Below, piece after piece: positions 7,789-26,383 of a stretch of 64,000 bases of DNA. Within the stretch, counting starts at the first letter, position 1; each line of letters begins with the position of its first letter. This stretch comes from an uncultured delta proteobacterium (GTDB taxonomy: Bacteria > Desulfobacterota > Desulfobacteria > Desulfobacterales > QNYZ01), in contig CAWANO010000010.1 of the NCBI GenBank assembly GCA_963783425.1, positions 613,472-677,471 of the forward strand, written 5' to 3'. The translations under genes were made by a program, and so were the position numbers. Below the pieces are notes generated by a model, which saw only the letters and a program-made list of their open reading frames with translations, did not search any database and was not told the DNA's origin.

Positions 7789-8943
7789 ATGAGCGTTTCC
7801 TCGTTTAGTGCCATGGAACTGTTTGATTGGCTTTGCGACCCCGCCAAGATCGATTTTCTGCTGCTCGATGTGCGCAACCAAGAGGAGTTCGGGCGCTTTA
7901 AGGTCGAAGGGCCCTTTGATTTCGAGATGCTCAACGTGCCCTATATGGAGTTTATCGAGCATGAAAAAGAGAGCGTGGCGCGGGTGCCCAAACGCGACAA
8001 GATCCGCGTGGTCTGCGCCAAGGAGGGGTCCTCCAGGTTCGTGGCCGAGATTCTCGAAAACCACGGCTACAGCGACCTGGCCAACCTGCAGGTGGGCATC
8101 AAGGCCTGGGGCAACCTGCTGGCGCCCATCAAGGTGGCCGAGACCGGCACCTACGGCCTCTACCAGTTCCGGCGCCCGGGCAAAGCTTCGTGCAGCTACG
8201 CGCTGACCTGCGGCAAGGAGATGATGGTCTTTGATCCGGCCAAGAACATCGCCGCCTACCAGCGCTTTGCCGACGAGCGCGGCCTGGCCATCATCAAGAC
8301 CGTCGAAACCCACCGCCAGGCCGACTATATCTCCGGCAGCCCGGCCCTCAACAAAACTACCGGGGCCGAGATCATCGCGCCCACGGGCGATTTCGAGGAG
8401 GCGCGCTTTCGCTACACCCCGGCCGTGGACGGCGAACCGATCGCCTTCAGCCAGGCGGGGCCCGCGGTGCGCATCGTGCACACCCCCGGCCACACCCCGG
8501 GCAGCACCTCCTACCTGATCGACAACCGATACCTCATCACCGGCGACACGGTTTTTATTTTCAGCATCGGCCGGCCCGACCTGGGCGGCATGGCCGATGC
8601 CTGGTCGAAAATGCTCTTTGATACCGTTCAGAACAAGATTCTCAAGCTCGACGACGCCACCGTCATTTTACCCGGCCACTACATGGACTGGAAAGAGGCC
8701 AATGATGACCTGATCTTCGCCGAAACCATCGGCAAGATCAAAGAGATCAACCAGGAGATTTACAACATCGACACGGAAGCCGATTTTTATCAATACATCA
8801 AGGCCAATATGCGCAAACAGCCCGAGGAGTATGCCAAGATCCGTCAGATCAACGCCGGCCTGATCGAGGTCGACCCCGAAGAACAGGATATCATGGACCT
8901 GGGCAAGAACGAGTGCGCCGCCAGCGCAATGGCACAAAGCTAA
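7789..8943 (+). CDS. rhodanese domain plus MBL-fold metallo-hydrolase (persulfide-dioxygenase-like)
   Basis: AAGGAG RBS lies upstream. The N-terminal rhodanese domain has the Cys loop 'VVCAKEGSSRF'. The MBL core includes 'ETHRQADYISG' and 'VHTPGHTPGS'. Confidence 0.8.
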   Translation: MSVSSFSAMELFDWLCDPAKIDFLLLDVRNQEEFGRFKVEGPFDFEMLNVPYMEFIEHEKESVARVPKRDKIRVVCAKEGSSRFVAEILENHGYSDLANLQVGIKAWGNLLAPIKVAETGTYGLYQFRRPGKASCSYALTCGKEMMVFDPAKNIAAYQRFADERGLAIIKTVETHRQADYISGSPALNKTTGAEIIAPTGDFEEARFRYTPAVDGEPIAFSQAGPAVRIVHTPGHTPGSTSYLIDNRYLITGDTVFIFSIGRPDLGGMADAWSKMLFDTVQNKILKLDDATVILPGHYMDWKEANDDLIFAETIGKIKEINQEIYNIDTEADFYQYIKANMRKQPEEYAKIRQINAGLIEVDPEEQDIMDLGKNECAASAMAQS

Positions 8944-11492: not shown

Positions 11493-12402
11493 ATGATGTC
11501 ATCGCCCACACCACAACCACCCAAGCCAACGGTTACCGACGCCCGCCGCACTATAAAGTGGGTGCTGATAGTGCTGGTGCTGATGGCCGTGGCCGCCTTT
11601 TTCATATTGCCCCTCAACAGCTGTATCGAGGGTTGCGATTGTGACGAGGAGATCGTCGCGGCTATCGTGGAATTCGGTGAGCCCGACGAGGAAAACCGCA
11701 CCCTTGAAGACAATCAATTTACCGCCGAGTATATTTTCTACGACGCCGAGATCAAAAAAACCTTCGTCTGGGGCAAGGATGTCGACGTTTGCTGCTTGAA
11801 AAGCACTGAAAGATATGCGCCCGAAGATGAGGACACAGAAGATCCGGGCGATGGTGATGAGGACACAGAAGATCCGGGCGATGGTGATGAGGACACAGAA
11901 GATCCGGGCGATGGTGATGAGGACATCAGAAGATCCGGGCGATGGTGATGAGGACATAGAAGATCCGGGCGATGGTGATGAGGACACAGAAGATCCGGGC
12001 GATGGTGATGAGGACACAGAAGATCCGGGCGATGACCCTGTTGCTGAAGCACAGGTTGCCGAAGCCAAGCCGGGCGAAGAGATTGTCATCGAGCTCAAGG
12101 GGGTCGACCGCTCACCGGATTCGGAAACGGTTATGCAGGATGTGATGGCACTAGGGGTATCGGTGTTGCGGGAAGGGCTGACCTACTACCTCGAGACGCT
12201 ACCCGAAGAGGGCCAAATAACCTACCCCGCAGAGGTGAGCGAGGCCGACCTGCCCTATCAGCTCTCCGATCGCTTTGTGGAGTACACGGCGCCGGAACCG
12301 TTTACAGAGAACGATTCGTTCGAGTTCAGTGTCAGCGACGAGGCGGGGGAGGTCGAAAACCGGTCGATCGCTAAAACCGTAACCATTCAACCGGCTGAGT
12401 GA
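11493..12402 (+). CDS. membrane-anchored acidic repeat protein (EDTEDPGDGD repeats), split by a 1-nt insertion in repeat copy 4
   Basis: AAGGAGG RBS lies upstream. The TM anchor is 'WVLIVLVLMAVAAFFILPL'. Track ORFs 11493..11948 and 11815..12402 are the two halves, in frames 0 and +1. Confidence 0.55.
11829..12035 (+). repeat. 30-bp tandem repeat, about 7 copies (GAGGACACAGAAGATCCGGGCGATGGTGAT)
   Basis: Copies start at 11829, 11859, 11889, 11919 (31 bp, extra T at 11926), 11950 (C>T variant), 11980 and 12010 (truncated). Confidence 0.95.
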
Positions 12403-12533: not shown

Positions 12534-13646
12534 TCACTCCAAGGCCTGAAAGTGCCGCATGAACTTGCGGTCGATGTGATCTTTGATCAGAAAGGCCAGG
12601 CGCCCGCCAAAGGTAATCCCGGCCTTGTGGAGCACGCCCTGATCGCCACCCATGTTGAAGATCAGCAGGTAGCTGCCGCCGGGATCGAATGGTGTGAGCG
12701 CCTCGCCCTCCAGGGCCGCCACCAGGTTGGCATAGAGTACGGGGTTCTGGCGCACGGCGTAGACCCCCACCTTGTCCAGAGGCTGGGGCTCAAAATAGAT
12801 ACAGTCGCCCCCGCCGAAAATGCGCTCATCCCCAATGCACTGCAGGTAACGGTTGACCAGCAGGCCGCCGTCGGGTCCGGTGGGCAGCCCCGAGTCGGCG
12901 AAAATCCGTGAGGGTCGCACACCCACCGCCAGGAACACGAAATCGGCCGGGTCGTTGGTACCGTCATCCCGCACCACCACACCGGCCCGAATCGCCGCCG
13001 CGCGAACGCCGTCCAGCACTTCGACACCCCGTTTGGTGAGGATTTTTTTTGCCCGGCGGCGCACGGGCTGCGGAAAGCCCTTCATGAAACGGCTGCCGGC
13101 ATAGACGCGGATGCGGGGATCGTGTTTACCCAGCCGCCGGGCCAACTGCCAGACGTTACCGGCCACCTCTACGGCCGAAGGGCCGCCGCCCACGATGGCC
13201 ACCTGAACCGGGCCGGCAGCGGTCAGTTTTTCGAGGCGCTGCTGTGCCTCCATGAGCCGTTCGATGGGTTTTACGGTAAAAAGTGCTTCCACCTCGCCCG
13301 CCAGGATATCCCGGGGCACATAGCTGCCGGCGTTCATGGAGAGCACATCGTAATCGATGGAGTCGCCCGAGGCCAGATGCACCCGGCGCGCCTCGGCATC
13401 CACCCGCACGGCACTGTCGTGCACGAAGGCGCCGCCCTGTTTTTCCACCACGTGTCGGGTTCGGAAACGAATATCATTGGGCGTGTAGGTGCCACCGAGC
13501 ATACCCGGCCCCATCCCGGAGTAATAGTGGTGCGTGGAAGGCTGTACCACGCTGACCCGGTGCCCCTTGGCGCGGATGGCATGCAGATTGGCCAGGGTGA
13601 CCATGTGGGCATGCCCCCCGCCGATCAATACCAGATGTTTTCCCAT
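12534..13646 (-). CDS. NAD(P)/FAD-dependent pyridine-nucleotide-disulfide-family oxidoreductase
   Basis: It has an N-terminal Rossmann fold ('HLVLIGGGHAHM') and a second dinucleotide fold ('VAIVGGGPSAVEVAG'). It also has 'IFGGGDC' near the C-terminus. Confidence 0.8.
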   Translation of the reverse strand: MGKHLVLIGGGHAHMVTLANLHAIRAKGHRVSVVQPSTHHYYSGMGPGMLGGTYTPNDIRFRTRHVVEKQGGAFVHDSAVRVDAEARRVHLASGDSIDYDVLSMNAGSYVPRDILAGEVEALFTVKPIERLMEAQQRLEKLTAAGPVQVAIVGGGPSAVEVAGNVWQLARRLGKHDPRIRVYAGSRFMKGFPQPVRRRAKKILTKRGVEVLDGVRAAAIRAGVVVRDDGTNDPADFVFLAVGVRPSRIFADSGLPTGPDGGLLVNRYLQCIGDERIFGGGDCIYFEPQPLDKVGVYAVRQNPVLYANLVAALEGEALTPFDPGGSYLLIFNMGGDQGVLHKAGITFGGRLAFLIKDHIDRKFMRHFQALE

Positions 13647-13679
13647 TTAAACCTCCATTGACCGGGGACCGGTCGACCG

Positions 13680-14525
13680 TTACGCGCTTTGAACGGTCAC
13701 CCGATCCATCATTTTGCCCAACACCTTCAGGTGTGTTTTCTCCTCCGAGGCGATCTGCAGCAGGAATTCGCGCGCCGGAGATGCTTCCCGGCGGTCGGCG
13801 GCGCGAAAATAGAGATCCATGGCCTGGGCTTCGATGGACATGGCCATCTGAATCGCCCCCTCGGCGCTGTTCAGGTCTGGTTTGAACAACTCCAGATATT
13901 GTTCAGTGGTCAGTCCGCCTTCAGCCGCCGGCGCCACGATATCGCTTTCGAACGTCTCCCGGTCGACCGGGTTTTCGGCCACCTTGCTGTAGATCTCAAA
14001 CAACCGCCGCTTGTGGCCGATCTCGATATCGGCCAGGCGTTTGAACATATCCTTCACCGCCGCACCGGGCACCCGTTCGGTCATGCTCAGATAAAAATCC
14101 CGTAACCCGTCCTCCAGCGAGTAGCCTAAACCCAGCACCTGTTCGGTGGATTGAATGTCGGTGAAAAGCGCCAGTCCAAGGGTTTCATCGCCCACCACCA
14201 CGTTACTCTCCCAGGCTTTGATGCCCCCTGACAGGTTGAGCACGTTGTCAAAACCCTTGCCGCCCATCAACTGCGCAGCCACCCGGCTGCGGCCGCCCGA
14301 GGCTCAGTAGACCAGGGTTGGTTTTTCAGGATCGATCTCCTTCAGGCGGTCGGACAGTTCCGGCAACGGGATCAGCTTGGCCCCGGGCAAATGCCCGGCC
14401 GCATACTCGTTGGGCTGGCGCACATCCAGCACGGTAACCTCGTCGGCTTTGGCCGCCGCCAACATCTCGCGGCCTTGCTGCGAGTCGATGGATTTAACCG
14501 GTGTGAAAAACTGTTTCCATTTCAT
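13680..14525 (-). CDS. predicted selenoprotein: rhodanese (Sec at the active site) fused to a ferritin/rubrerythrin-like domain
   Basis: Track ORFs 14304..14525 and 13680..14282 share one frame, interrupted only by TGA (14304-14306). Read-through gives 'PTLVY-U-ASGGRSRVAAQL...GGIKAW', the rhodanese CxxGxRS loop with U in place of C. The C-terminal part has two ExxH motifs ('DIEIGH', 'SEEKTH'). Confidence 0.8.
14274..14291 (-). promoter_or_regulatory. candidate bacterial SECIS hairpin
   Basis: The mRNA can fold as CGCAGCC-GGGU-GGCUGCG, a 7-bp stem with a G/U-containing tetraloop. The stem starts 12 nt after the UGA. Confidence 0.6.
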
Positions 14526-14850
14526 CTTGACATTGATCCTTTCACTTGGGACGATTTTGGGGCTCCGTACCTGGTGCCATCATAGAGCGTGGGCCAAACC
14601 AGTCAAGTGGATTGATGACATCGCCGGCGGCTAATTATATCCCGGTGTGAAAGATGGGCTTGAGTTCGATCGGGTTCCATAGTAAATACAGATAGTTTTA
14701 TGCCGGTTTCGTTTTTTCACCGCAAACAACCATCGGTGAGCCTTATTCATAGCTCACACCCCTGAAAACACGAAACACATCGCCAATCTATAGAATCACC
14801 TTATATTTATCCTATTACTGTTTGATTCCGGCCACCGAAAGGAAAACCCC

Positions 14851-15726
14851 ATGATCGATAACGCCGACACACCCCGGGTCAACGGATTTCAATTCTTGCC
14901 GCCCAAGCTGGGAGCCTGGATCAACAGCTATATTCCCGCCGAGGATTTCGAAGGACCCATTCCGTTTCAACCACTCGCCAAACCCCTGGTCGAATCCACG
15001 CTGGCCATGGTCACCAGCGCCGGCATCAGCCTCAAGGGTGATGCGCCCTTCAACATGACACGTGAGCTTGAGGAACCACTGTGGGGCGACCCCAGCCATC
15101 GTTGTTTACCCGCCACCACCACGTCCGCCGAGATCGACGTTAATCACCTCCACATCAACACCGATTACATCAAGCAGGACATTAACGTGATTCTGCCGCT
15201 GCAGCGCCTGGACGAGCTGGTCGGGGCGGGGGAGGTCGGTGGAGTAGCGCCCACGGCCTACTCTTTTTACGGGTTTCAATGGGACCGGGATTCGTTTCTG
15301 GAAAAAAGTATCGCCCCCATGATCGCACAGATGAAGTCAGAAGCGGTGGATGCGGTGTTGCTCACTCCGGCCTGACCGTTTTGTTGCCGGTCCGTGGGAC
15401 TGGCCGCGCGCATGATCGAAGAGGCAGGCATCAGCACGGTGGTGCTTACGCCCATGCCCGAATTTCACCGCGCCGTGGGCATTCCACGCCAGGTGGCCGT
15501 GGCCTTTCCATTCGGCCGCCTGTTGGGTGAGGTCGGTGATGTCAAGACCCAAAAGCAGGTACTGCAAACGGCGCTAGGGTGGCTGGAAATGGCCAAGCGT
15601 CCCGGCCACACCCGTCACCAGCCGCTGACCTGGCCTGAATCGCCCAAGGATACCCATTGGCATCCGCCCCGGATGAGCCCGATCATTAAACATTTTTTGA
15701 GTGAGATTAAAAAAACACCGGTTTGA
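14851..15726 (+). CDS. predicted selenoprotein of the glycine/sarcosine/betaine/D-proline reductase component B (GrdB/PrdB) family
   Basis: Track ORFs 14851..15375 and 15394..15726 share one frame, interrupted by TGA (15373-15375). Read-through gives 'VDAVLLTPA-U-PFCCRSVGLAARMIEEAGISTVVL', which matches the family's 'LLT..U..C....r.iE.aGIptv' redox motif. Confidence 0.8.
15386..15404 (+). promoter_or_regulatory. candidate bacterial SECIS hairpin
   Basis: The fold is GCCGGUCC-GUG-GGACUGGC, an 8-bp stem with one G-U pair. The stem starts 10 nt after the UGA. Confidence 0.55.
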
Positions 15727-15780
15727 GCGTCTTTTTTTGATCACCGCAAAACGGATATTTCGACCATTAGGAGGTGAAAA

Positions 15781-17004
15781 ATGACAAAACGGCGTTGGTC
15801 ACGCAGAGATTTCATTAAAACCACCGGTACGGCCGGTGTGGGTTCGGTCCTTGTGCCGGGGCTGGCTGTGGGTGCCGTGCCGGATCATGGCGACCGTAGA
15901 TGGGCCGCGGCTCCCGGGCAGGTACCCAAACGCCCTTTTGGCCGTAGCGGCATCGAGGTGTCCGTGTTGAGCCTGGGCGGCATGTTCGATATCCCCAACA
16001 ACCAGTTGATGCTGCAACAGGCCCTGCGGCTGGGCGTCACCTATTGGGACACGGCCAACAGCTACGGCTACGGTAGCAGCGAGGAAGGGATCGGACAGTT
16101 CTTCGCCAAATACCCCGAAGCCCGTCAATCGGTCTTTCTGGTCACCAAGTCAGGCCGCGAGGACCCCGAAGCGCTTAGCGAACACCTGGCTCTTTCCCTC
16201 AAGCGCCTCAATACCGGCACCATCGACCTGTTTTTCATGCACGCCCTGAGCAGCACGCGCCCCTTGACCGACGATGTTCGCCGCTGGGCCGAGCGCGCCA
16301 AGGCCGACGGCAAGATCCGGTTGTTTGGTTTCAGCACCCATCGCAACATGCAAAGCTGTCTGCAAGAGGCGGCCAAAATGGATTGGGTTGACGGCATCAT
16401 GATGACCTACAACTTCCGCCTGATGCACGATCCCGAAATGCAGGCGGCGGTCGCGGCCTGCCAGGAGGCCGGCATCGGCCTGACCGCCATGAAAACCCAG
16501 GGTGGCGGGCAGGTTGAAACTGGTTCGGATGAGGCGCTGGCCCTGGGCGGCCGCTTTGTCGAGCGCGGCTTCACCCCCCATCAAGCCAAACTCAAGGCGG
16601 TGTGGGAAAACCCGGCCATCGCCAGTATCTGTTCGCAGATGCCCAATATGACCATTCTCATGGCCAACACGGCCGCGGCCCTGGATCGAACCCACCTGAC
16701 AACCGGTGATCAGCGGCAGTTGGCGCACTTTGCCGAGCAGACCCGCTCGGGGTACTGCGCCGGGTGTGGTGATATCTGCGAATCAACACTGGTTGAGTGT
16801 CCACCGGTGGCCGATGTGATGCGCTACCTGATGTACAGCCGCAGCTATGGCGACCACCGGCGGGCGAGGGCGCGTTTCCAACACCTGTCCGACAAAACCC
16901 GCCGCGCCCTGGCCAAGGCCGACTATGCCGAAGCCGAAAGGCGCTGCCCCCGGAGGTTACCCATCGGCCGCTTGATGCATGAGGCGCTGGCTGAGTTGGG
17001 CTAA
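15781..17004 (+). CDS. Tat-signal aldo/keto reductase with C-terminal Cys cluster
   Basis: AGGAGG RBS lies upstream. The twin-arginine leader is 'SRRDFIKTTGTAGVG'. The AKR core includes 'YWDTANSYG' and 'FLVTK'. A C-terminal 'CAGCGDICES...C' is present. Confidence 0.8.
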   Translation: MTKRRWSRRDFIKTTGTAGVGSVLVPGLAVGAVPDHGDRRWAAAPGQVPKRPFGRSGIEVSVLSLGGMFDIPNNQLMLQQALRLGVTYWDTANSYGYGSSEEGIGQFFAKYPEARQSVFLVTKSGREDPEALSEHLALSLKRLNTGTIDLFFMHALSSTRPLTDDVRRWAERAKADGKIRLFGFSTHRNMQSCLQEAAKMDWVDGIMMTYNFRLMHDPEMQAAVAACQEAGIGLTAMKTQGGGQVETGSDEALALGGRFVERGFTPHQAKLKAVWENPAIASICSQMPNMTILMANTAAALDRTHLTTGDQRQLAHFAEQTRSGYCAGCGDICESTLVECPPVADVMRYLMYSRSYGDHRRARARFQHLSDKTRRALAKADYAEAERRCPRRLPIGRLMHEALAELG

Positions 17005-17014
17005 TTAGAGACGG

Positions 17015-17338
17015 ATGGAGACCATGAACGTTCAGTTTGTTTACATGACCGCCGCCAATCGTGCCGAAGCCGAGCGCATCGGGCGCCATCTGGTGGAAAC
17101 GCGACTGGCGGCCTGCGTCAATCTTATCGAGGGGATGACCTCGATCTTTCGCTGGGAAGATAAAGTCCAAACCGATCAGGAGGTGGTTTTAATCGCCAAA
17201 GGCGTTGCCGACCGTATACCCGCCCTGGTAGCGGCGGTGAAGGCCCTGCACAGCTACGATACTCCCTGTGTGGTTGCCTTGCCGGCTGTCGGCGGCTATT
17301 CGCCGTTTCTGGAGTGGGTTGAGCGAGAGGTCACTTAA
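17015..17338 (+). CDS. cutA: divalent-cation tolerance protein CutA
   Basis: 'AERIGRHLVETRLAACVNLIEGMTSIFRWEDKVQTDQEVVLIAK...HSYDTPCVVALPV' is the CutA1 signature. Confidence 0.85.
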   Translation: METMNVQFVYMTAANRAEAERIGRHLVETRLAACVNLIEGMTSIFRWEDKVQTDQEVVLIAKGVADRIPALVAAVKALHSYDTPCVVALPAVGGYSPFLEWVEREVT

Positions 17339-17515: not shown

Positions 17516-20500
17516 TTAAAAGAGCTGTTGCTGGCGGTAACGTCGCTTTTTACGGGGAGCGCGGGCCGTTTCACGGGCCATGAGGCGCGCCTCGACCAGA
17601 TCCAAAAAAGGTGACCGGCGGCAGGTGACGCGCTGACCGAAACGGTGCCGCTGCTGGGCCCAACTCAAATAGAGCTCACTTTGAGCTCGGGTCATGGCGA
17701 CGTAAAACAGGCGCGCCTCCTCTGCCAGGTCCCGGTCCGACAACACCTCCCCCTGAGACCGATACGGTATCAGCCCATCCTCGCAACCGGCCACGATCAC
17801 CACTGCAAACTCCAGGCCCTTGGCGGCGTGCATGCTCATCAGGGTCACCTGTTGGGCGATTTCGCTATAGCGGTCGCTATCTTGGTAGAGACTGATGCGG
17901 GTGATAAAATCCCCCCAGGTCCGATCTTTTGCCAGATCAAAGATCAGCTCCCATTGGCGGGCCAGTTGCCGATCGGCCGCCAACCATTCGACGCGGCCCG
18001 TTTTCTTCAAAATCCAGCGCAGTTGAGTCTCGGACGAGCCGTCTGGAATACCGCTCTTAATATGGTCCAGCCATTGCGCCAGCCGCACCACAGCCGCCTG
18101 CTGGTTGCGGCTCATGCCGGAAATGGGCAGATGCCGAACCTCGTCCAACGCGCGCCATACGGGGATTTCACGCATGAGCCCCCATCGTTTCAGTCGCTTT
18201 ATTGCCAAATTTGAAGGCGGCCCTTCCATCAGCGCCACCGCCGACGCCAAGTCGCTGTAAACACCAGCGCCGTTGACCAACTTGGCCGCGGCCAAAAGAT
18301 CACCGATACCCGCTTGTTGAAACAGCGCCTCGCGTGCCGCCACGCAGAAGGGAATGCCGGCATCGCCCAGCGCTTGAGAGAGCAATTGAGACTGGAAGTG
18401 AGTCCGGAACAGCACGGCGAAGTCGCCATAGCTGTGTTGCGCGGTGGCGTTTTGGGTGATCCAACCCGTGTCGATATCGTGAAACCCGCGACCGCCAACG
18501 CGCTCTTCGATCAGGCGGGCGATGGCACGGGCTTCCTCGTGATCGGTTTTGGTTGCGAGGGTGCCGATCGTCGCGCGACCCTTGATTTCGGATAAAAGGG
18601 GCACCGCATGGGTGGCGAATCCCGCCAAATCGCTATCGGGTAGGCCGTGATGTATGCCAACACCATTTAACATCTGGCGGGCGGCCTTTAAAATGGCAGG
18701 CGTGCTGCGGTAATTGCGTTGCAATGCGACCACGGCCGCCGCCGGGTAATCACGCTTGAATCTCAGGAAAAAGCGCTGATCAGAACCGCGGAATCCATAA
18801 ATGGCCTGGTCCGGGTCGCCGATCACGCACAGTCCGCGCCCGTCGGCAGGTATCAGAGACCTGAGCAGACGATATTGACCTTCATTAAGATCCTGGTATT
18901 CATCGACGAATACGTATTTGAAACGTTGCTCCAGCCAGCGGCGGTAGCGGCTGTCATCTTCCAGCCGGCACACCACGCGCATGATCAAGTCTTCGAAATC
19001 CTGCACGCCTTGGAACTGCATGAGGCCGGTGTAGGACTCGTAGATATGGTTGGCGGTCGCCAGGTCGATGCCATCAATTCCGGCTAGGTCATCCGCCCGT
19101 ACCCGCTCTTCGATACGCTGCTTGGCACGCATGATGGCCCGGTCGGCCGCCTCGGTCCACAGGGCCAGTGGCTGACCGTCAGAGGCAACCATGTCGACGG
19201 CATCTCTGATCATCGCCTTGCGGTTTTCGGTGTCAAGCAACACCCGCTCGGAGCCCTCGCTCTCCGCCCGCAACAGTTGGTTGCAAAGCCCGTGGAAAGT
19301 GGCGATCACGGGCTGTTTGGACTTCTTTTCGGTCATGGCAGCCACGCGCTGCCGCATCTCACCGGCGGCCTTGTTGGTAAAGGTGAGTGCCAGGATTTGA
19401 TCGGGCTCGACGCCCGTGTCGTTGATCAAACGGACCATTCGGGTGGTGATGGTGTGGGTTTTTCCGGTTCCAGGACCAGCGATTACGATCAGGGCGCTGT
19501 CGTCGTGTTCGACCACGGCTTTCTGATATGGGTTCAAACGCGGCGCTTTATGGGGTGGGTCCACTACAGGTTGCGGCGCGGGTTCGGAAGTGACGCGCGG
19601 CGCTGGTGCATTATAAAGACCGCCTCGTGTTATTTTTTCCGCCTTGCTGGCGGTGTTTGGGTCCGGAGGCAGGGAGAGAAAAAGGCGTCGCTGTCCGGTC
19701 AATTCTTGGCGTTCAGCCGCTTCAAAAAGATGCACCGTTCCAAAACGCCCGTCGAATCCGGCATCAATGTGCACGGCGCCCGTCCGCATGCGCCGCACCG
19801 CTTCGGCCAAGAGCGGAATGCCCGCCCGGGCGATTTGACCCTCGCTCAACCTGGAAAGAATCGAAAACTCGTCACCTAGGCGGCTAATGGCCTGTTGATA
19901 GGCCCGGCCGACGGTTTTGGTGTTAACACCCACCCCGTAAATCTCGGCCAGTATCTCCATCAGGGGAACGATGCTCAGGTAGGGGTGGCGGGCGCCTTTT
20001 CGCGCTGATGAGTGTTGATCAGCCAAGGCTTCCACCCGGTTTAAAACACCCAGGGTAAGGGGTTTTTCACAGTGCGGGCAGATACCGCCGAGCCCCCTGG
20101 TCTGGCCAGGTGTCAGACACACCCCGCATTTACTATGGCCGTCGAGATGGTATTTGCCTTCCTGAGGGAAAAACTCGAAGGTGCCTTCGAACGATTTCAT
20201 ATCTCCACTTTTTAGGGCGTTGTAAATACCGTCAAAGGAGAGTTCGGTGTCGAAGCGGTTGGCCTCACGGCCGAGTTTGAGCGGGGAGTGGGCGTCCGAG
20301 TTGGAGACGAGTGTGTAACGATCCAGATTGGAAACCCGCCAGTTCATGGCTGGATCCGAAGAGAGCCCCGTTTCAAGTGCAAATATGTGGGGAGTCAGCT
20401 CTTCGAAGCAGGCCTCGACCGTGTCGAATCCCGATTTGGACCCCAACAGCGAAAACCACGGCGTCCAGACGTGGGCGGGGATAAACATACACCGCTCGTC

Positions 20501-20962
20501 CACCTCGAGCACCATCTCAAGCAGGTCACGGGCATCGAGGCCCAGAATCGGGCGCCCGTCGGAATGGATGTTACCGACGCGCTCGAGTCGCTGGTTGAGG
20601 CGCAGGGCGTCGTTCAGCTCGGCGAGCAGTATCAGGTTGTGATTTTTTCGGGTCCGTCCCGCCTTTTTATAGATGTTGCTGATTTCAGCCGTGAGCACAA
20701 AGCGCACCTGACCCGGGCAACTGGCGGGTATTTGTAACTCGCAGGCGGCTGCGCTTTTTCCGTTCAGACGGTAGAGGCCGGGCTCGGCTGGGACCAGTTT
20801 TTGTCGAATTTCATGGCACCAAACCGGGTGGGTAAAATCCCCCGTGCCAACCACGGTGATGCCTTTTATGCGCGCGGCGACGTAGAGGTTTTCCAAGTCG
20901 AGATTTTTAGCCGTTGCGATCGAATATTTGGAGTGTATGTGAAGATCGGCGATGAATTTCAT
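17516..20962 (-). CDS. EndoQ-like PHP-domain nuclease fused to a UvrD/PcrA-type superfamily-1 helicase
   Basis: The N-terminus reads 'FIADLHIHSKYS...VVGTGDFTHPVW', followed by the Zn-ribbon 'CGVCLTPGQTRGLGGICPHCEKPL' (EndoQ-like). From about residue 490 the helicase motifs appear: 'NPYQKAVV', 'VIAGPGTGKTHTI', 'VDEYQD', 'NYRS' and 'MSMHAAKGLEF'. Confidence 0.75.
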   Translation of the reverse strand: MKFIADLHIHSKYSIATAKNLDLENLYVAARIKGITVVGTGDFTHPVWCHEIRQKLVPAEPGLYRLNGKSAAACELQIPASCPGQVRFVLTAEISNIYKKAGRTRKNHNLILLAELNDALRLNQRLERVGNIHSDGRPILGLDARDLLEMVLEVDERCMFIPAHVWTPWFSLLGSKSGFDTVEACFEELTPHIFALETGLSSDPAMNWRVSNLDRYTLVSNSDAHSPLKLGREANRFDTELSFDGIYNALKSGDMKSFEGTFEFFPQEGKYHLDGHSKCGVCLTPGQTRGLGGICPHCEKPLTLGVLNRVEALADQHSSARKGARHPYLSIVPLMEILAEIYGVGVNTKTVGRAYQQAISRLGDEFSILSRLSEGQIARAGIPLLAEAVRRMRTGAVHIDAGFDGRFGTVHLFEAAERQELTGQRRLFLSLPPDPNTASKAEKITRGGLYNAPAPRVTSEPAPQPVVDPPHKAPRLNPYQKAVVEHDDSALIVIAGPGTGKTHTITTRMVRLINDTGVEPDQILALTFTNKAAGEMRQRVAAMTEKKSKQPVIATFHGLCNQLLRAESEGSERVLLDTENRKAMIRDAVDMVASDGQPLALWTEAADRAIMRAKQRIEERVRADDLAGIDGIDLATANHIYESYTGLMQFQGVQDFEDLIMRVVCRLEDDSRYRRWLEQRFKYVFVDEYQDLNEGQYRLLRSLIPADGRGLCVIGDPDQAIYGFRGSDQRFFLRFKRDYPAAAVVALQRNYRSTPAILKAARQMLNGVGIHHGLPDSDLAGFATHAVPLLSEIKGRATIGTLATKTDHEEARAIARLIEERVGGRGFHDIDTGWITQNATAQHSYGDFAVLFRTHFQSQLLSQALGDAGIPFCVAAREALFQQAGIGDLLAAAKLVNGAGVYSDLASAVALMEGPPSNLAIKRLKRWGLMREIPVWRALDEVRHLPISGMSRNQQAAVVRLAQWLDHIKSGIPDGSSETQLRWILKKTGRVEWLAADRQLARQWELIFDLAKDRTWGDFITRISLYQDSDRYSEIAQQVTLMSMHAAKGLEFAVVIVAGCEDGLIPYRSQGEVLSDRDLAEEARLFYVAMTRAQSELYLSWAQQRHRFGQRVTCRRSPFLDLVEARLMARETARAPRKKRRYRQQQLF

Positions 20963-22804: not shown

Positions 22805-23923
22805 ATGCAAATCACCATCAATCGGGATGACATTATTCAGGTTTTGGCCAATGTGCAGGGCTTAACCAACCGCAAAAGCAATCTGGCCATTACGGCCAAT
22901 GTGTTGATTCGGACCGACAGTGAAGGGGTCCGCATAACGGCCACCGATCTTGAGACCGGATTCGAAGGTTACTATCCCGCCGTGGTGGGTCGTGAAGGCG
23001 CCGTTACCATCAATGCCCGAAAACTGTTCGAGATCGTGCGCGATTTTCCTATTCAGGAGATCAAACTGGAGGAGATCAAAAACGGTTGGATTGAAATCGG
23101 CAGCGGCAAGGTGATGTATCACATTGTAAGCCTTAATCCGGATGAATTTCCTGACTCGCCCGAGATCGATGATGTCCGCTCTTTCGATATGGAAAGCGGC
23201 CATTTCAAAAAGATGATCGACAAAACCGTTGGGATTGTGGGTGAAAGTGACGACAAGCGCGCTCACATCATCGGTAACTGCCTGGAGAAGGTCAAAGAGG
23301 GCGGAAAAAATATCGTGCGCATGGTGGCCACTGATGGCGGGCGGTTGTCGAAAATGGATTGTGTATATGGTGACGGCGTCGATCTACCTCTGGACAACCC
23401 CGTGCTTATTCCCAAAAAAGGGCTGATGGAGGTTTCAAAATTTCTCAGGCGTGACGGCATCGTAAATCTCGGCCTCAAAGACAATAAATTTGTCGTCAAA
23501 CAGGAGCGCGAAACCTTGATCGTGCGACTGCTGGAAGGCGTCTTTCCCGATTATGCCAAAGTGGTTTGGAGAGATATTCAGAGCGATATCCTGGTGCCCA
23601 AGCAACCCCTTTTCATGATGGTCAAACGCATGTCGATCCTGGCCACAGAGACCTATCGCGCCGTAAAATTCCGGTTTGAAGATGACTGCCTGCATATCGA
23701 CTCAACCAACCCTGACATCGGCGACTCCAAGGAACACATGGAGATTGAATTTAAGCGTAAACCGTTGGAGATGGCCTTTAATCCACGGTTTTTTATCGAC
23801 GCGCTTAATGTCATCGATGAAGAAAATGTGATTTTGAACATCTCCAATGAATCCAGGCCTTGTCTGATCGAGGCCGAAAATGACAAATCCTATCTGGGCG
23901 CTATCATGCCCATGCACGTTTAA
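22805..23923 (+). CDS. dnaN: DNA polymerase III subunit beta (sliding clamp)
   Basis: It is 372 aa with the typical clamp pattern: 'LAITANVLI', 'ATDLE', 'MVATDGGRLS' and 'PDY..V'. It ends '...YLGAIMPMHV'. Confidence 0.95.
   Translation: MQITINRDDIIQVLANVQGLTNRKSNLAITANVLIRTDSEGVRITATDLETGFEGYYPAVVGREGAVTINARKLFEIVRDFPIQEIKLEEIKNGWIEIGSGKVMYHIVSLNPDEFPDSPEIDDVRSFDMESGHFKKMIDKTVGIVGESDDKRAHIIGNCLEKVKEGGKNIVRMVATDGGRLSKMDCVYGDGVDLPLDNPVLIPKKGLMEVSKFLRRDGIVNLGLKDNKFVVKQERETLIVRLLEGVFPDYAKVVWRDIQSDILVPKQPLFMMVKRMSILATETYRAVKFRFEDDCLHIDSTNPDIGDSKEHMEIEFKRKPLEMAFNPRFFIDALNVIDEENVILNISNESRPCLIEAENDKSYLGAIMPMHV

Positions 23924-23940: not shown

Positions 23941-26383
<2,443 letters not shown>

What the first reader, a model, noticed from the sequence alone, without database searches (positions are those of the whole stretch)
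12534..17338. Divergent pair of selenoprotein genes flanked by redox genes: candidate Se/S redox module
The two predicted selenoprotein genes are transcribed divergently from a shared 325-bp region (14526-14850).

On one side lies an FAD/NAD(P) disulfide-family oxidoreductase, 33 nt downstream of the Sec-rhodanese gene on the same strand. On the other side lie a Tat-exported aldo/keto reductase with a C-terminal Cys cluster and cutA.

The 'LIGGGHAH' opening of the oxidoreductase recalls the NADH-dehydrogenase-like domain that is fused to SelD in some bacteria. This is from my recollection and should be verified.

Two Sec enzymes, a flavoprotein and a sulfur/selenium-transferase domain side by side suggest a dedicated chalcogen-trafficking or reductive pathway. 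I cannot match it to a described operon.
Basis: inference. Interest (0 to 1): 0.75.

Follow-up and report, generated by a model that had tools for sequence, protein, structure and literature searches.

The report
Two neighbouring selenoprotein genes, one conserved operon
The two selenocysteine genes are real but are neighbours only in this lineage; the conserved and apparently undescribed unit is a two-gene operon pairing a selenium- or sulfur-active rhodanese fused to a di-iron domain with a flavoprotein related to the domain fused to selenophosphate synthetase.

Summary
Every coordinate is right, and both in-frame TGA codons are genuine selenocysteine (Sec) codons with conserved SECIS hairpins.

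The five-gene "Se/S redox module" is not supported.
- In 82 loci that encode the rhodanese fusion, the PrdB-like gene and cutA never occur nearby. The aldo/keto reductase occurs in 2 of 82, about 3 kb away.
- In 82 distant PrdB-like loci, none of the other four genes is nearby.
- Only three near-identical relatives (85-93% identity) keep the divergent layout.

What is conserved is a two-gene operon:
- The first gene is a rhodanese (active site Sec in 38 loci, Cys in 44) fused to a rubrerythrin-type di-iron domain.
- A 370-aa soluble flavoprotein follows in 70 of 82 loci, with a median gap of 25 nt.
- The flavoprotein's closest curated family is TIGR03169, "N-terminal to SelD". The match is full length at 260 bits, below the 310-bit cutoff, so it is a sister clade and not a member.

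The most likely function is an NAD(P)H-driven reductase acting on a persulfide or selenylsulfide carried by the rhodanese. That would make it a split analogue of Npsr/CoADR-RHD. This mechanism is inferred, not shown.

Both selenoprotein families are already catalogued. I found no description of the pairing.

The parts
12534..13646 (-). 370-aa soluble FAD/NAD(P)H flavoprotein. It belongs to the NDH-2/SQR/AIF-like two-dinucleotide-binding superfamily and is a sister clade of TIGR03169 'N-terminal to SelD'. It is the second gene of the conserved operon.
   Evidence: Family matches:
- PF07992, 117 bits.
- TIGR03169, 259.9 bits against a 310 cutoff, aligned 5-366 of 370.

Closest solved structures: NDH-2 9pxk/4nwz, SQR, FSP1 and rubredoxin reductase.

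Conservation:
- Orthologues at 52-64% identity lie directly downstream of the rhodanese fusion in 70 of 82 loci.
- The only invariant Cys is C282, in the GGGDC FAD motif.
13680..14525 (-). 281-aa selenoprotein. An N-terminal rhodanese domain (about 14205-14465) is fused to a C-terminal rubrerythrin-type di-iron four-helix bundle without a rubredoxin domain (about 13710-14138). It is the first gene of the conserved operon.
   Evidence: Family matches: PF00581 at 75.8 bits and PF02915 at 44.6 bits.

Homologues:
- 2624 homologues were found, mostly from Desulfobacterales.
- The di-iron ligands E138, E168/H171, E232 and E262/H265 are invariant.

Structure:
- The AF2 model of a 58%-identical Cys form has pLDDT 84 and pTM 0.83.
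- No solved structure has this two-domain architecture.
14304..14306 (-). UGA selenocysteine codon (codon 74) at the catalytic position of the rhodanese loop, giving U-A-S-G-G-R-S.
   Evidence: It aligns with the invariant catalytic Cys of full-length homologues. The codon is TGA in 38 of 82 loci and TGC/TGT in 44 of 82. At least 13 Sec/Cys switches are needed on an NJ tree.
14275..14290 (-). SECIS hairpin of the rhodanese gene: GCAGC / C-G-K-G-U-N loop / GCUGC. The loop GU lies about 22 nt after the UGA.
   Evidence: The RNAalifold consensus on 39 Sec forms shows pairs 95-100% kept and loop G, G and U invariant. There is a synonymous-site constraint: GCT in 36 of 38 Sec forms against 6 of 44 Cys forms, p = 1.2e-14.
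14526..14850 (.). 325-bp AT-richer divergent intergenic region with one sigma-70-like site in each direction: minus strand 14606-14579 (10 of 12 matches) and plus strand 14780-14807 (9 of 12 matches).
   Evidence: Sequence and composition. The promoter scan found 3 sites against 2.0 +/- 1.3 expected, so this is not above chance.
14851..15726 (+). 291-aa selenoprotein of the GrdB/PrdB superfamily ('PrdB-like', UxxC motif U-P-F-C). It is not a true PrdB.
   Evidence: Family scores:
- TIGR04483, 138 bits against a 300 cutoff.
- TIGR01918, 34 bits against a 65 cutoff.
- PF07355, 27 bits.

Homologues:
- 1158 homologues were found. Most are truncated at about 172 aa by gene callers.
- Three of the five full-length forms have Cys at the Sec position.
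15373..15375 (+). UGA selenocysteine codon (codon 175) of the PrdB-like gene.
   Evidence: TGA is present in all 86 loci examined. The reading frame continues for about 115 conserved codons after it.
15386..15404 (+). SECIS hairpin of the PrdB-like gene: an 8-bp stem GCCGGUCC/GGACUGGC with a GUG loop.
   Evidence: 99.7% of 600 cells are paired. Seven cells have changes on both sides, and 0 of 500 shuffles reach the observed values. Slid controls give 3.5-51% paired. Some compensatory changes alter the encoded amino acids, as in L093 and L151.
15781..17004 (+). 407-aa Tat-signal aldo/keto reductase with a C-terminal Cys cluster (probable Fe-S site). It lies 54 nt after the PrdB-like stop codon. 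It is not part of the conserved unit.
   Evidence: PF00248 at 92 bits and the TIGR01409 Tat signal. It is near the rhodanese pair in only 2 of 82 loci, separated from it by unrelated genes. It is absent from distant PrdB-like loci.
17015..17338 (+). 107-aa CutA, 10 nt after the AKR. It is not part of the conserved unit.
   Evidence: PF03091 at 115 bits. It is found in 0 of 82 and 0 of 86 loci.

Best explanation
The region holds two independent units that are adjacent only in this lineage.

Unit 1 (12534-14525, minus strand) is a widely conserved two-gene operon.
- The first gene encodes a single-domain rhodanese fused to a rubrerythrin-type di-iron domain.
- Its catalytic residue switches freely between Cys and Sec.
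- The second gene encodes a soluble NAD(P)H/FAD flavoprotein that has no redox-active cysteine pair of its own.

Proposed mechanism for Unit 1 (inferred):
- The rhodanese Cys/Sec picks up sulfane sulfur, or selenium, as a persulfide or selenylsulfide.
- The flavoprotein uses NAD(P)H to reduce that protein-bound chalcogen-chalcogen bond in trans, releasing sulfide or selenide.
- This would make the pair a split analogue of the FAD-dependent persulfide reductases that carry a rhodanese domain (Npsr, CoAPR, CoADR-RHD).
- It would also parallel what the homologous Ndh-like domain is presumed to do for the CxxC site of SelD in Ndh-SelD fusions.
- The di-iron domain is an added redox site whose role is unresolved. 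It may be an electron relay or sink, or give peroxide/O2 protection.

Unit 2 (14851-17338, plus strand) is a stand-alone PrdB-like UxxC selenoprotein of unknown substrate, followed in this lineage by a Tat-exported Fe-S aldo/keto reductase and CutA.

Shown: the gene structures, the Sec codons and SECIS elements, the domain families, and which adjacencies are or are not conserved.

Inferred: the electron path and the substrate.
For: Architecture:
- The flavoprotein lies directly downstream in 70 of 82 loci, with a median gap of 25 nt.
- This holds equally for Sec forms (34 of 38) and Cys forms (36 of 44).
- PrdB-like, AKR and CutA are not co-conserved.

Rhodanese domain:
- The closest sequence and structure matches of the rhodanese domain are the rhodanese domains fused to persulfide-handling redox enzymes.
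- These are 3tp9, BpPRF 5ve3, CoADR-RHD 3icr/3ict, Npsr 3nta/3ntd/4ocg, CoAPR 8a56 and 6pfz.
- The six-residue CX4R loop is of the sulfurtransferase type (sequence).
- Sec/Cys exchange at the catalytic residue (38 against 44 loci, at least 13 switches) is typical of a redox-active nucleophile.

Flavoprotein:
- Both dinucleotide motifs are present, and C282 in GGGDC is the only invariant Cys, so a redox chalcogen has to come from a partner.
- The nearest curated family is the domain fused to SelD. All such SelD fusions carry a CxxC site (PMC2398784).
Against: - No biochemical or expression data exist for any member. I found none in five literature searches.
- The flavoprotein lacks the flavin-proximal Cys that Npsr and CoADR use. 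Direct reduction of a partner's persulfide would therefore be mechanistically unprecedented in that family.
- Its closest solved relatives reduce quinones or small iron proteins. That fits electron delivery to the di-iron site as well as it fits the proposal.
- Neighbouring genes in other genomes are themed around oxidative stress, not sulfur respiration: rubrerythrin in 12, Trx2 in 9 and nitroreductase in 7 of 80 loci, and MsrA in one locus examined (L001).
- 12 of 82 loci lack the flavoprotein. At least two of these are cut off by contig ends.
- More distant flavoprotein homologues, such as P0292 at 38% identity, have no rhodanese partner.
Confidence: 0.5

Rival explanations
1. Unit 1 is an NAD(P)H peroxidase or oxidase of the rubrerythrin type. 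The flavoprotein plays the part of NADH:rubredoxin oxidoreductase and feeds electrons to the di-iron site, which reduces H2O2 or O2. The rhodanese Cys/Sec acts as a relay, a sensor or a second peroxidatic centre.
For: - A complete E/ExxH/E/ExxH di-iron ligand set is invariant.
- The flavoprotein is related to rubredoxin and putidaredoxin reductases.
- Neighbours in other genomes include classical rubrerythrin (12 of 80 loci), thioredoxin 2 (9), nitroreductase (7) and MsrA (L001).
- Strict anaerobes carry many such systems (general knowledge).
Against: - It gives no reason for an invariant sulfurtransferase-type rhodanese loop with frequent Sec.
- The rhodanese domain is most similar to persulfide-handling RHDs.
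- There is no rubredoxin-like domain to relay electrons.
Confidence: 0.25
2. Unit 1 is a selenium-mobilising system. The rhodanese carries Se as a perselenide, and the SelD-N-terminal-like flavoprotein reduces it to selenide for SelD.
For: - The flavoprotein's closest curated family is the domain fused to SelD.
- That fusion is common, and its role is stated to be unclear (PMC2398784, PMC4561486).
- Rhodanese perselenides as Se donors are known in vitro (my recollection of Ogasawara et al. 2001, not checked here).
- One relative in the flavoprotein clade is fused to arsenosugar-pathway glycosyltransferases, which hints at metalloid chemistry.
Against: - The score is below the TIGR03169 cutoff for this protein and for all ten relatives sampled from the 150 closest (239-287 bits against 310).
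- No selD was seen next to the pair in the two loci with Pfam gene tables or among the recurrent neighbour clusters that were annotated; no direct search for selD was run.
- The di-iron domain is left unexplained.
- A housekeeping Se donor would not be expected to be missing its reductase in about 10% of loci.
Confidence: 0.1
3. One reading: all five genes form a lineage-specific functional module, co-regulated from the shared 325-bp region.
For: - The arrangement is kept in three contigs from relatives at 85-93% identity.
- All five products are redox or metal related.
- The gaps on the plus-strand side are short, at 54 and 10 nt.
Against: - Conservation at this distance is ordinary synteny.
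- There is no co-occurrence in 82 + 82 more distant loci.
- Promoter-like matches are not above chance.
Confidence: 0.08
4. The TGA codons are true stops, meaning split genes or pseudogenes, and there are no selenoproteins here.
For: Gene callers split both genes in public data (P0001, P0123 and most hits).
Against: - Conserved coding sequence continues after the TGA.
- Cys sits at the same position in homologues.
- There are SECIS-specific synonymous constraints and covariation.
Confidence: 0.01

Closest known systems
FAD-dependent persulfide reductases with a rhodanese domain (Shewanella Npsr 3nta, Enterococcus CoAPR 8a56, Bacillus CoADR-RHD 3icr, A. fulgidus 6pfz)
   Same: Both combine an NAD(P)H flavoprotein with a single-Cys rhodanese domain. 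The rhodanese domains are similar at E about 1e-7 to 1e-9 by sequence, and at about 30-37% identity with rmsd 1.5-3.0 A by structure.
   Different: - Here there are two polypeptides, not one.
- The flavoprotein belongs to the NDH-2/AIF-like class, not the CoADR/Nox class.
- It has no dimerisation domain and no flavin-proximal catalytic Cys.
- The rhodanese carries an extra di-iron domain and often uses Sec.
Ndh-SelD fusion proteins / NCBIfam TIGR03169 'Nterm_to_SelD'
   Same: TIGR03169 is the best-matching curated family by a wide margin (260 bits; the next unrelated family scores 45 bits). The alignment is end to end and the length is the same.
   Different: - The score is below the 310-bit cutoff, as are those of all ten relatives sampled from the 150 closest representatives.
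- The protein is not fused to or adjacent to SelD.
- The partner is a rhodanese/di-iron fusion.
Rubrerythrin with NADH:rubredoxin oxidoreductase
   Same: Both have a di-iron four-helix bundle with E/ExxH/E/ExxH ligands and a partner flavoprotein of the same broad superfamily as rubredoxin reductase.
   Different: There is no rubredoxin domain or rubredoxin gene here. A rhodanese domain takes its place.
Catalogued selenoprotein families 'rhodanese-related sulfurtransferase (UxxG)' and 'proline reductase PrdB (UxxC)'
   Same: The domains and Sec motifs are the same: U-A-S-G and U-P-F-C. Both are reported as abundant in Deltaproteobacteria and in marine metagenomes (PMC13188914, PMC1976440, PMC2398784).
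   Different: - The catalogues I read do not mention the rubrerythrin fusion or the flavoprotein partner.
- I could not check whether their example accessions carry the fusion.
- The PrdB-like protein fails the PrdB equivalog cutoff, and no PrdA was recognised among its immediate neighbours.
Persulfide dioxygenase-rhodanese fusions (BpPRF 5ve3, 3tp9)
   Same: Both fuse a non-haem iron domain to a rhodanese. These are the top structural matches for the rhodanese domain.
   Different: The iron domain there is a mono-iron metallo-beta-lactamase fold. Here it is a di-iron ferritin-like bundle.

Membership tests
Bacterial selenoprotein gene (both genes) | In-frame UGA aligned with Cys in homologues, with conserved coding sequence after it | tested here: met
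   Rhodanese. PrdB-like.
Bacterial selenoprotein gene (both genes) | SECIS hairpin shortly downstream of the UGA, with G/U in the apical loop, under selection | tested here: met
   Rhodanese: codon contrast p = 1.2e-14 and consensus hairpin. PrdB-like: 99.7% paired, with compensatory changes. No Rfam family reached its threshold.
Bacterial selenoprotein gene (both genes) | The genome encodes selA/selB/selC/selD | not tested
   No tRNA-Sec or sel gene search was run on the window, and the rest of the genome is not available.
Rhodanese sulfurtransferase (PF00581) | Domain score above the gathering threshold, and a six-residue CX4R active-site loop | tested here: met
   75.8 bits against 22.2. 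The loop is U/C-A-x-G-G-R-S, with Y73, G77, G78, R79 and S80 invariant.
Rubrerythrin (classical) | Di-iron ligands E, ExxH, E, ExxH | tested here: met
   E138, E168/H171, E232 and E262/H265 are invariant in 66 sequences. PF02915 scores 44.6 against 22.8.
Rubrerythrin (classical) | C-terminal rubredoxin-like Cys4 domain | tested here: not met
   There is no RUBY_RBDX hit and no Cys4 motif. The protein ends after the fourth helix of the bundle.
TIGR03169 Nterm_to_SelD | Score at or above the curated cutoff (310 bits) | tested here: not met
   259.9 bits. Ten sampled relatives score 239-287 bits.
TIGR03169 Nterm_to_SelD | End-to-end homology to the family profile | tested here: met
   Residues 5-366 align to profile positions 2-365 of 365, E = 4.3e-77.
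TIGR03169 Nterm_to_SelD | Fusion to, or association with, SelD | tested here: not met
   The protein stands alone at 370 aa and its operon partner is the rhodanese fusion. No SelD (AIRS-domain) gene appears in the two annotated loci, and none was recognised among the annotated neighbour clusters; no direct search for selD was run.
D-proline reductase PrdB (TIGR04483) | Equivalog score of at least 300 bits | tested here: not met
   138.3 bits. It also falls below the TIGR01918 subfamily cutoff, at 34.3 against 65.45.
D-proline reductase PrdB (TIGR04483) | UxxC redox motif | tested here: met
   U175-P-F-C178, with C178 invariant.
D-proline reductase PrdB (TIGR04483) | Adjacent prdA (pyruvoyl subunit) | tested here: not met
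   Neighbours here are the rhodanese, the AKR and CutA. Neighbours elsewhere are tmk, holB, PSP1, metG and others. No PrdA-specific search was run.
Npsr/CoADR-RHD persulfide reductases | Flavoprotein and rhodanese in one chain, with a catalytic Cys next to the flavin | tested here: not met
   There are two genes, and the only invariant Cys is in the GGGDC motif. It therefore works like this family at most, and is not a member.
   0 of 82, 0 of 82 and 2 of 82 from the rhodanese side. 0 of 82 distant loci from the PrdB-like side.

The most novel reading that the evidence does not exclude
The rhodanese(Sec/Cys)/di-iron fusion and its TIGR03169-like flavoprotein form an undescribed, widespread enzyme system. 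It was found in at least 417 species-level genomes, mainly Desulfobacterota but also Scalindua MAGs. In this reading a flavin reduces a chalcogen-chalcogen bond presented in trans by a partner's Cys or Sec. Because the flavoprotein is the closest free-standing relative of the Ndh-like domain of Ndh-SelD fusions, working it out would also reveal what that long-unexplained SelD domain does, namely generating selenide at the SelD CxxC site.
Probability: 0.2. Interest if true: 0.7.

Novelty: new variant of a known kind. Interest (0 to 1): 0.4.

Why it matters
- **Annotation.** Gene callers split both genes, into fragments of 73 and 200 aa and of 174 and 110 aa. About half of the rhodanese-fusion family and essentially all of the PrdB-like family are therefore mis-annotated in public data.
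- **Biology.** The conserved pair is a compact, testable system. Nature has swapped Cys and Sec at one catalytic residue at least 13 times, which makes it a good natural experiment on why Sec is used.
- **The SelD fusion.** The pair offers an experimental route to the function of the flavoprotein domain fused to selenophosphate synthetase. That fusion accounts for about 40% of Cys-containing SelDs in ocean metagenomes and has been left unexplained since 2008 (PMC2398784).
- **Method.** The negative result matters too. Adjacency of two selenoprotein genes in a selenoprotein-rich lineage is not evidence of a pathway.

Tried and rejected
- **Rfam.** A scan of the whole window at gathering thresholds found nothing, and no bacterial SECIS family hit.
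- **Single-sequence folding.** Folding the two post-UGA stretches gave z-scores near 0. The hairpins are only convincing comparatively.
- **Exact look-up of the flavoprotein.** It is not on record, so the source genome is not in that index.
- **Divergent gene in L001.** The 238-aa gene upstream of the rhodanese in L001 is not PrdB-like (E = 35).
- **Fusions of the flavoprotein with rhodanese or di-iron domains.** The longer representatives P0245, P0279 and P0314, among others, show only Pyr_redox_2. The one real fusion found, P0335, is to arsenosugar glycosyltransferases.
- **Literature.** Searches for the rhodanese-rubrerythrin fusion, for TIGR03169 and for Ndh-SelD characterisation found no functional study.
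- **Promoter and terminator scans.** Counts are not above shuffled expectation, so I draw no regulatory conclusion.
- **Fe-S repair idea.** I considered a sulfur donor plus an iron donor plus a reductase. Nothing in the neighbourhoods supports it, so I set it aside at roughly 5%.
- **Not attempted.** I did not identify the source organism beyond best hits to Desulfobacterales MAGs (61% identity at most).

Full report
**1. What is in the sequence**

The ORF table and translations confirm every coordinate in the finding.

On the minus strand:
- A gene runs from 14525 to 13680 if one TGA at codon 74 (14304-14306) is read through.
- The TGA falls in ...PTLVY-U-ASGGRS..., the catalytic loop of a rhodanese domain.
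- 33 nt downstream, on the same strand, lies a 370-codon gene (13646-12534).

On the plus strand, after a 325-bp gap (14526-14850):
- A gene runs from 14851 to 15726 if one TGA at codon 175 (15373-15375) is read through, giving ...LLTPA-U-PFCC....
- A 407-codon gene follows after 54 nt (15781-17004).
- A 107-codon gene follows after a further 10 nt (17015-17338).

**2. What the five proteins are**

- **Flavoprotein.**
  - It matches Pyr_redox_2 at 117 bits.
  - Its best NCBIfam match by far is TIGR03169, "Nterm_to_SelD" (E = 4.3e-77, 259.9 bits, aligned end to end).
  - That score is below the curated cutoff of 310.
- **Sec-rhodanese.** It has a rhodanese domain (75.8 bits) fused to a rubrerythrin-type domain (44.6 bits). 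There is no rubredoxin module.
- **Second selenoprotein.**
  - It belongs to the GrdB/PrdB superfamily.
  - It fails the PrdB equivalog cutoff (138 against 300 bits).
  - It also fails the selenoprotein-B subfamily cutoff (34 against 65 bits).
- **Aldo/keto reductase.** It has a Tat signal and a C-terminal CxxCxxxC...C cluster.
- **Last gene.** It is CutA.

No curated NCBIfam model covers the rhodanese/di-iron fusion as such.

**3. Are the TGA codons selenocysteine? Yes, for both**

Rhodanese fusion:
- 2624 homologues exist, mostly from Desulfobacterales.
- Full-length homologues have an invariant Cys at the TGA position.
- In 82 loci from other genomes, the codon is TGA in 38 and TGC/TGT in 44.
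- At least 13 switches between Sec and Cys are needed on a neighbour-joining tree.
- A small hairpin follows the TGA: GCAGC, loop C-G-K-G-U-N, GCUGC (window 14275-14290).
- The amino acids there (R-S-R-V-A-A) are conserved in Cys forms too, so I compared synonymous codons.
- The Ala codon whose third base pairs with the A of AGC is GCT in 36 of 38 Sec forms. It is GCT in only 6 of 44 Cys forms (Fisher p = 1.2e-14).
- That constraint exists only where Sec has to be inserted.

PrdB-like gene:
- Most of 1158 homologues are cut at about 172 aa by gene callers.
- Read-through restores about 115 conserved residues.
- Three of the five full-length forms have Cys at the position.
- All 86 loci examined have TGA.
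- The 8-bp hairpin at 15386-15404 is paired in 99.7% of cells.
- It shows compensatory double changes that no shuffle reaches, and slid controls collapse to 3.5-51% paired.
- Some compensations even change the encoded residues, as in L093 and L151.

**4. Is the neighbourhood conserved?**

From the rhodanese side, I scanned one genome per GTDB species:
- At least 417 loci encode a relative, and 80 were kept. Two more loci came from exact look-ups.
- The flavoprotein (52-64% identity) lies immediately downstream on the same strand in 70 of 82.
- The median gap is 25 nt.
- This holds for Sec and Cys forms alike.
- The PrdB-like gene and cutA were found in none.
- The AKR was found in two, about 3 kb upstream behind unrelated genes.

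From the PrdB-like side, I scanned metagenome contigs:
- Of 82 loci below 80% identity, 50 had enough flank on each side to test.
- None has a rhodanese, the flavoprotein, CutA or a close AKR homologue nearby.
- Recurrent neighbours are tmk, holB, a PSP1 protein and metG.
- Three long contigs show unrelated contexts.
- Only three short contigs from near relatives (85-93% identity) repeat the rhodanese <-> PrdB-like -> AKR layout. That is ordinary synteny.

The divergent pair of selenoprotein genes is therefore a local accident. The rhodanese-flavoprotein pair is a real operon.

**5. The flavoprotein and SelD**

- The Ndh-like domain fused to SelD is a described phenomenon. It is common in marine bacteria and protists, and its role is stated to be unclear (PMC2398784, PMC4561486).
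- TIGR03169 is the curated model for that domain, and it is this protein's nearest family.
- However, this protein and ten relatives sampled from its 150 closest cluster representatives all score 239-287 bits, below the cutoff. They form a free-standing sister clade.
- One member, P0335, is fused to two arsenosugar-pathway glycosyltransferases.
- A 38%-identical member has no rhodanese neighbour.

Further properties of the flavoprotein:
- The closest solved structures are NDH-2, sulfide:quinone reductase, FSP1/AIFM2 and rubredoxin or putidaredoxin reductases.
- Across 60 full-length orthologues the only invariant Cys is in the GGGDC FAD motif.
- The enzyme therefore has no redox disulfide of its own.

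**6. The rhodanese/di-iron fusion**

- The di-iron ligands E138, E168/H171, E232 and E262/H265 are invariant.
- An unusual E-G-G-L/M-T-T-E motif between helices is also conserved.
- An AlphaFold model of a 58%-identical Cys form is confident (pLDDT 84, pTM 0.83).
- No solved structure matches the whole architecture.
- The rhodanese half is closest to rhodanese domains fused to persulfide dioxygenase, CoA-disulfide/persulfide reductases and Npsr.
- The helical half is closest to ferritin-like di-metal proteins.

**7. How it most likely works**

The parts are:
- a sulfurtransferase-type Cys/Sec loop;
- a flavoprotein that lacks its own redox Cys;
- homology of that flavoprotein to a domain fused next to the CxxC site of SelD;
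- rhodanese domains of the persulfide-reductase type.

The most economical reading is an NAD(P)H-driven reduction of a persulfide or selenylsulfide held on the rhodanese. That is a split analogue of Npsr/CoADR-RHD.

The weak points are:
- the missing flavin-proximal Cys;
- the unexplained di-iron domain;
- neighbourhoods in other genomes that point to oxidative stress. These include a DedA-fused class-I disulfide reductase in 16 of 80 loci, rubrerythrin in 12, Trx2 in 9 and nitroreductase in 7, and MsrA in one locus (L001).

The main rival is therefore a rubrerythrin-like NAD(P)H peroxidase in which the flavoprotein feeds the di-iron site. A selenium-delivery role is possible but less likely. 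All of these are inferences. No experimental data were found.

**8. Comparison with what is known, and novelty**

- Both selenoprotein families are already catalogued. These are "rhodanese-related sulfurtransferase, UxxG" and "proline reductase PrdB, UxxC" (PMC13188914, PMC1976440, PMC2398784).
- Large selenoproteomes are normal in this group, so two Sec genes side by side is not surprising.
- In the literature available to me I found no description of the fusion with a di-iron domain. The same holds for the near-obligate pairing with a SelD-N-terminal-like flavoprotein, and for the near-even Sec/Cys split with many independent switches.
- I therefore class it as a new variant of a known kind and give it moderate interest.

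Noticed in passing
window 23941-26383 (+): gyrB is split into two overlapping ORFs in different frames (23941-24951 and 24896-26383). The shift falls in or just after an A-rich stretch around 24862-24880. This is either a homopolymer assembly error or a real frameshift. dnaN lies just upstream (22805-23923), so the window may be close to the replication origin.
   Followed up: partly
window 7789-8943 (+): This is a second rhodanese-containing gene: an N-terminal rhodanese plus a metallo-beta-lactamase domain. The domain pair is the same as in persulfide dioxygenase-rhodanese fusions, about 4 kb from the Sec-rhodanese operon.
   Followed up: no
window 11826-12034: A 30-bp tandem repeat with 6.9 copies and 97% matches. 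It encodes acidic DEDTEDPGDG repeats in an ORF that also carries a bacterial Ig-like (Big_9) domain. The reading frames in 11493-12402 look disrupted or repeat-shifted.
   Followed up: no
window 17516-20962 (-): A 1148-aa UvrD-type helicase with an N-terminal extension of about 470 residues that matches no Pfam family. It lies directly after cutA on the opposite strand.
   Followed up: no
L170 3-2498 (P0335): A member of the same flavoprotein clade is fused to two arsenosugar-biosynthesis glycosyltransferases (TIGR04282 and TIGR04283). This hints that the clade may be tied to metalloid or chalcogen chemistry more generally.
   Followed up: partly
L071 12232-14544; L002 9969-12101; 16 of 80 loci: A fusion protein of about 710 aa often follows the rhodanese-flavoprotein pair. 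It combines a DedA/VTT membrane domain with a class-I pyridine nucleotide-disulfide reductase that has a dimerisation domain. It is absent from the window.
   Followed up: partly
P0121 and P0124 (PrdB-like homologues): Two full-length homologues have Trp or Arg where the others have Sec or Cys. Either residue can be encoded by a codon one substitution away from TGA. These may be inactivated copies or sequencing errors.
   Followed up: no
L018, L047, L079 (Candidatus Scalindua MAGs): The rhodanese/di-iron plus flavoprotein pair also occurs in anammox Planctomycetota bins, outside Desulfobacterota. This could reflect horizontal transfer or mis-binning.
   Followed up: no
L027 3712-4428 (-) and 11 other loci, including L001 7021-7737: A conserved protein of about 237 aa with no Pfam match lies divergently upstream of the rhodanese fusion in 12 of 80 loci. 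It is not present in the window.
   Followed up: no
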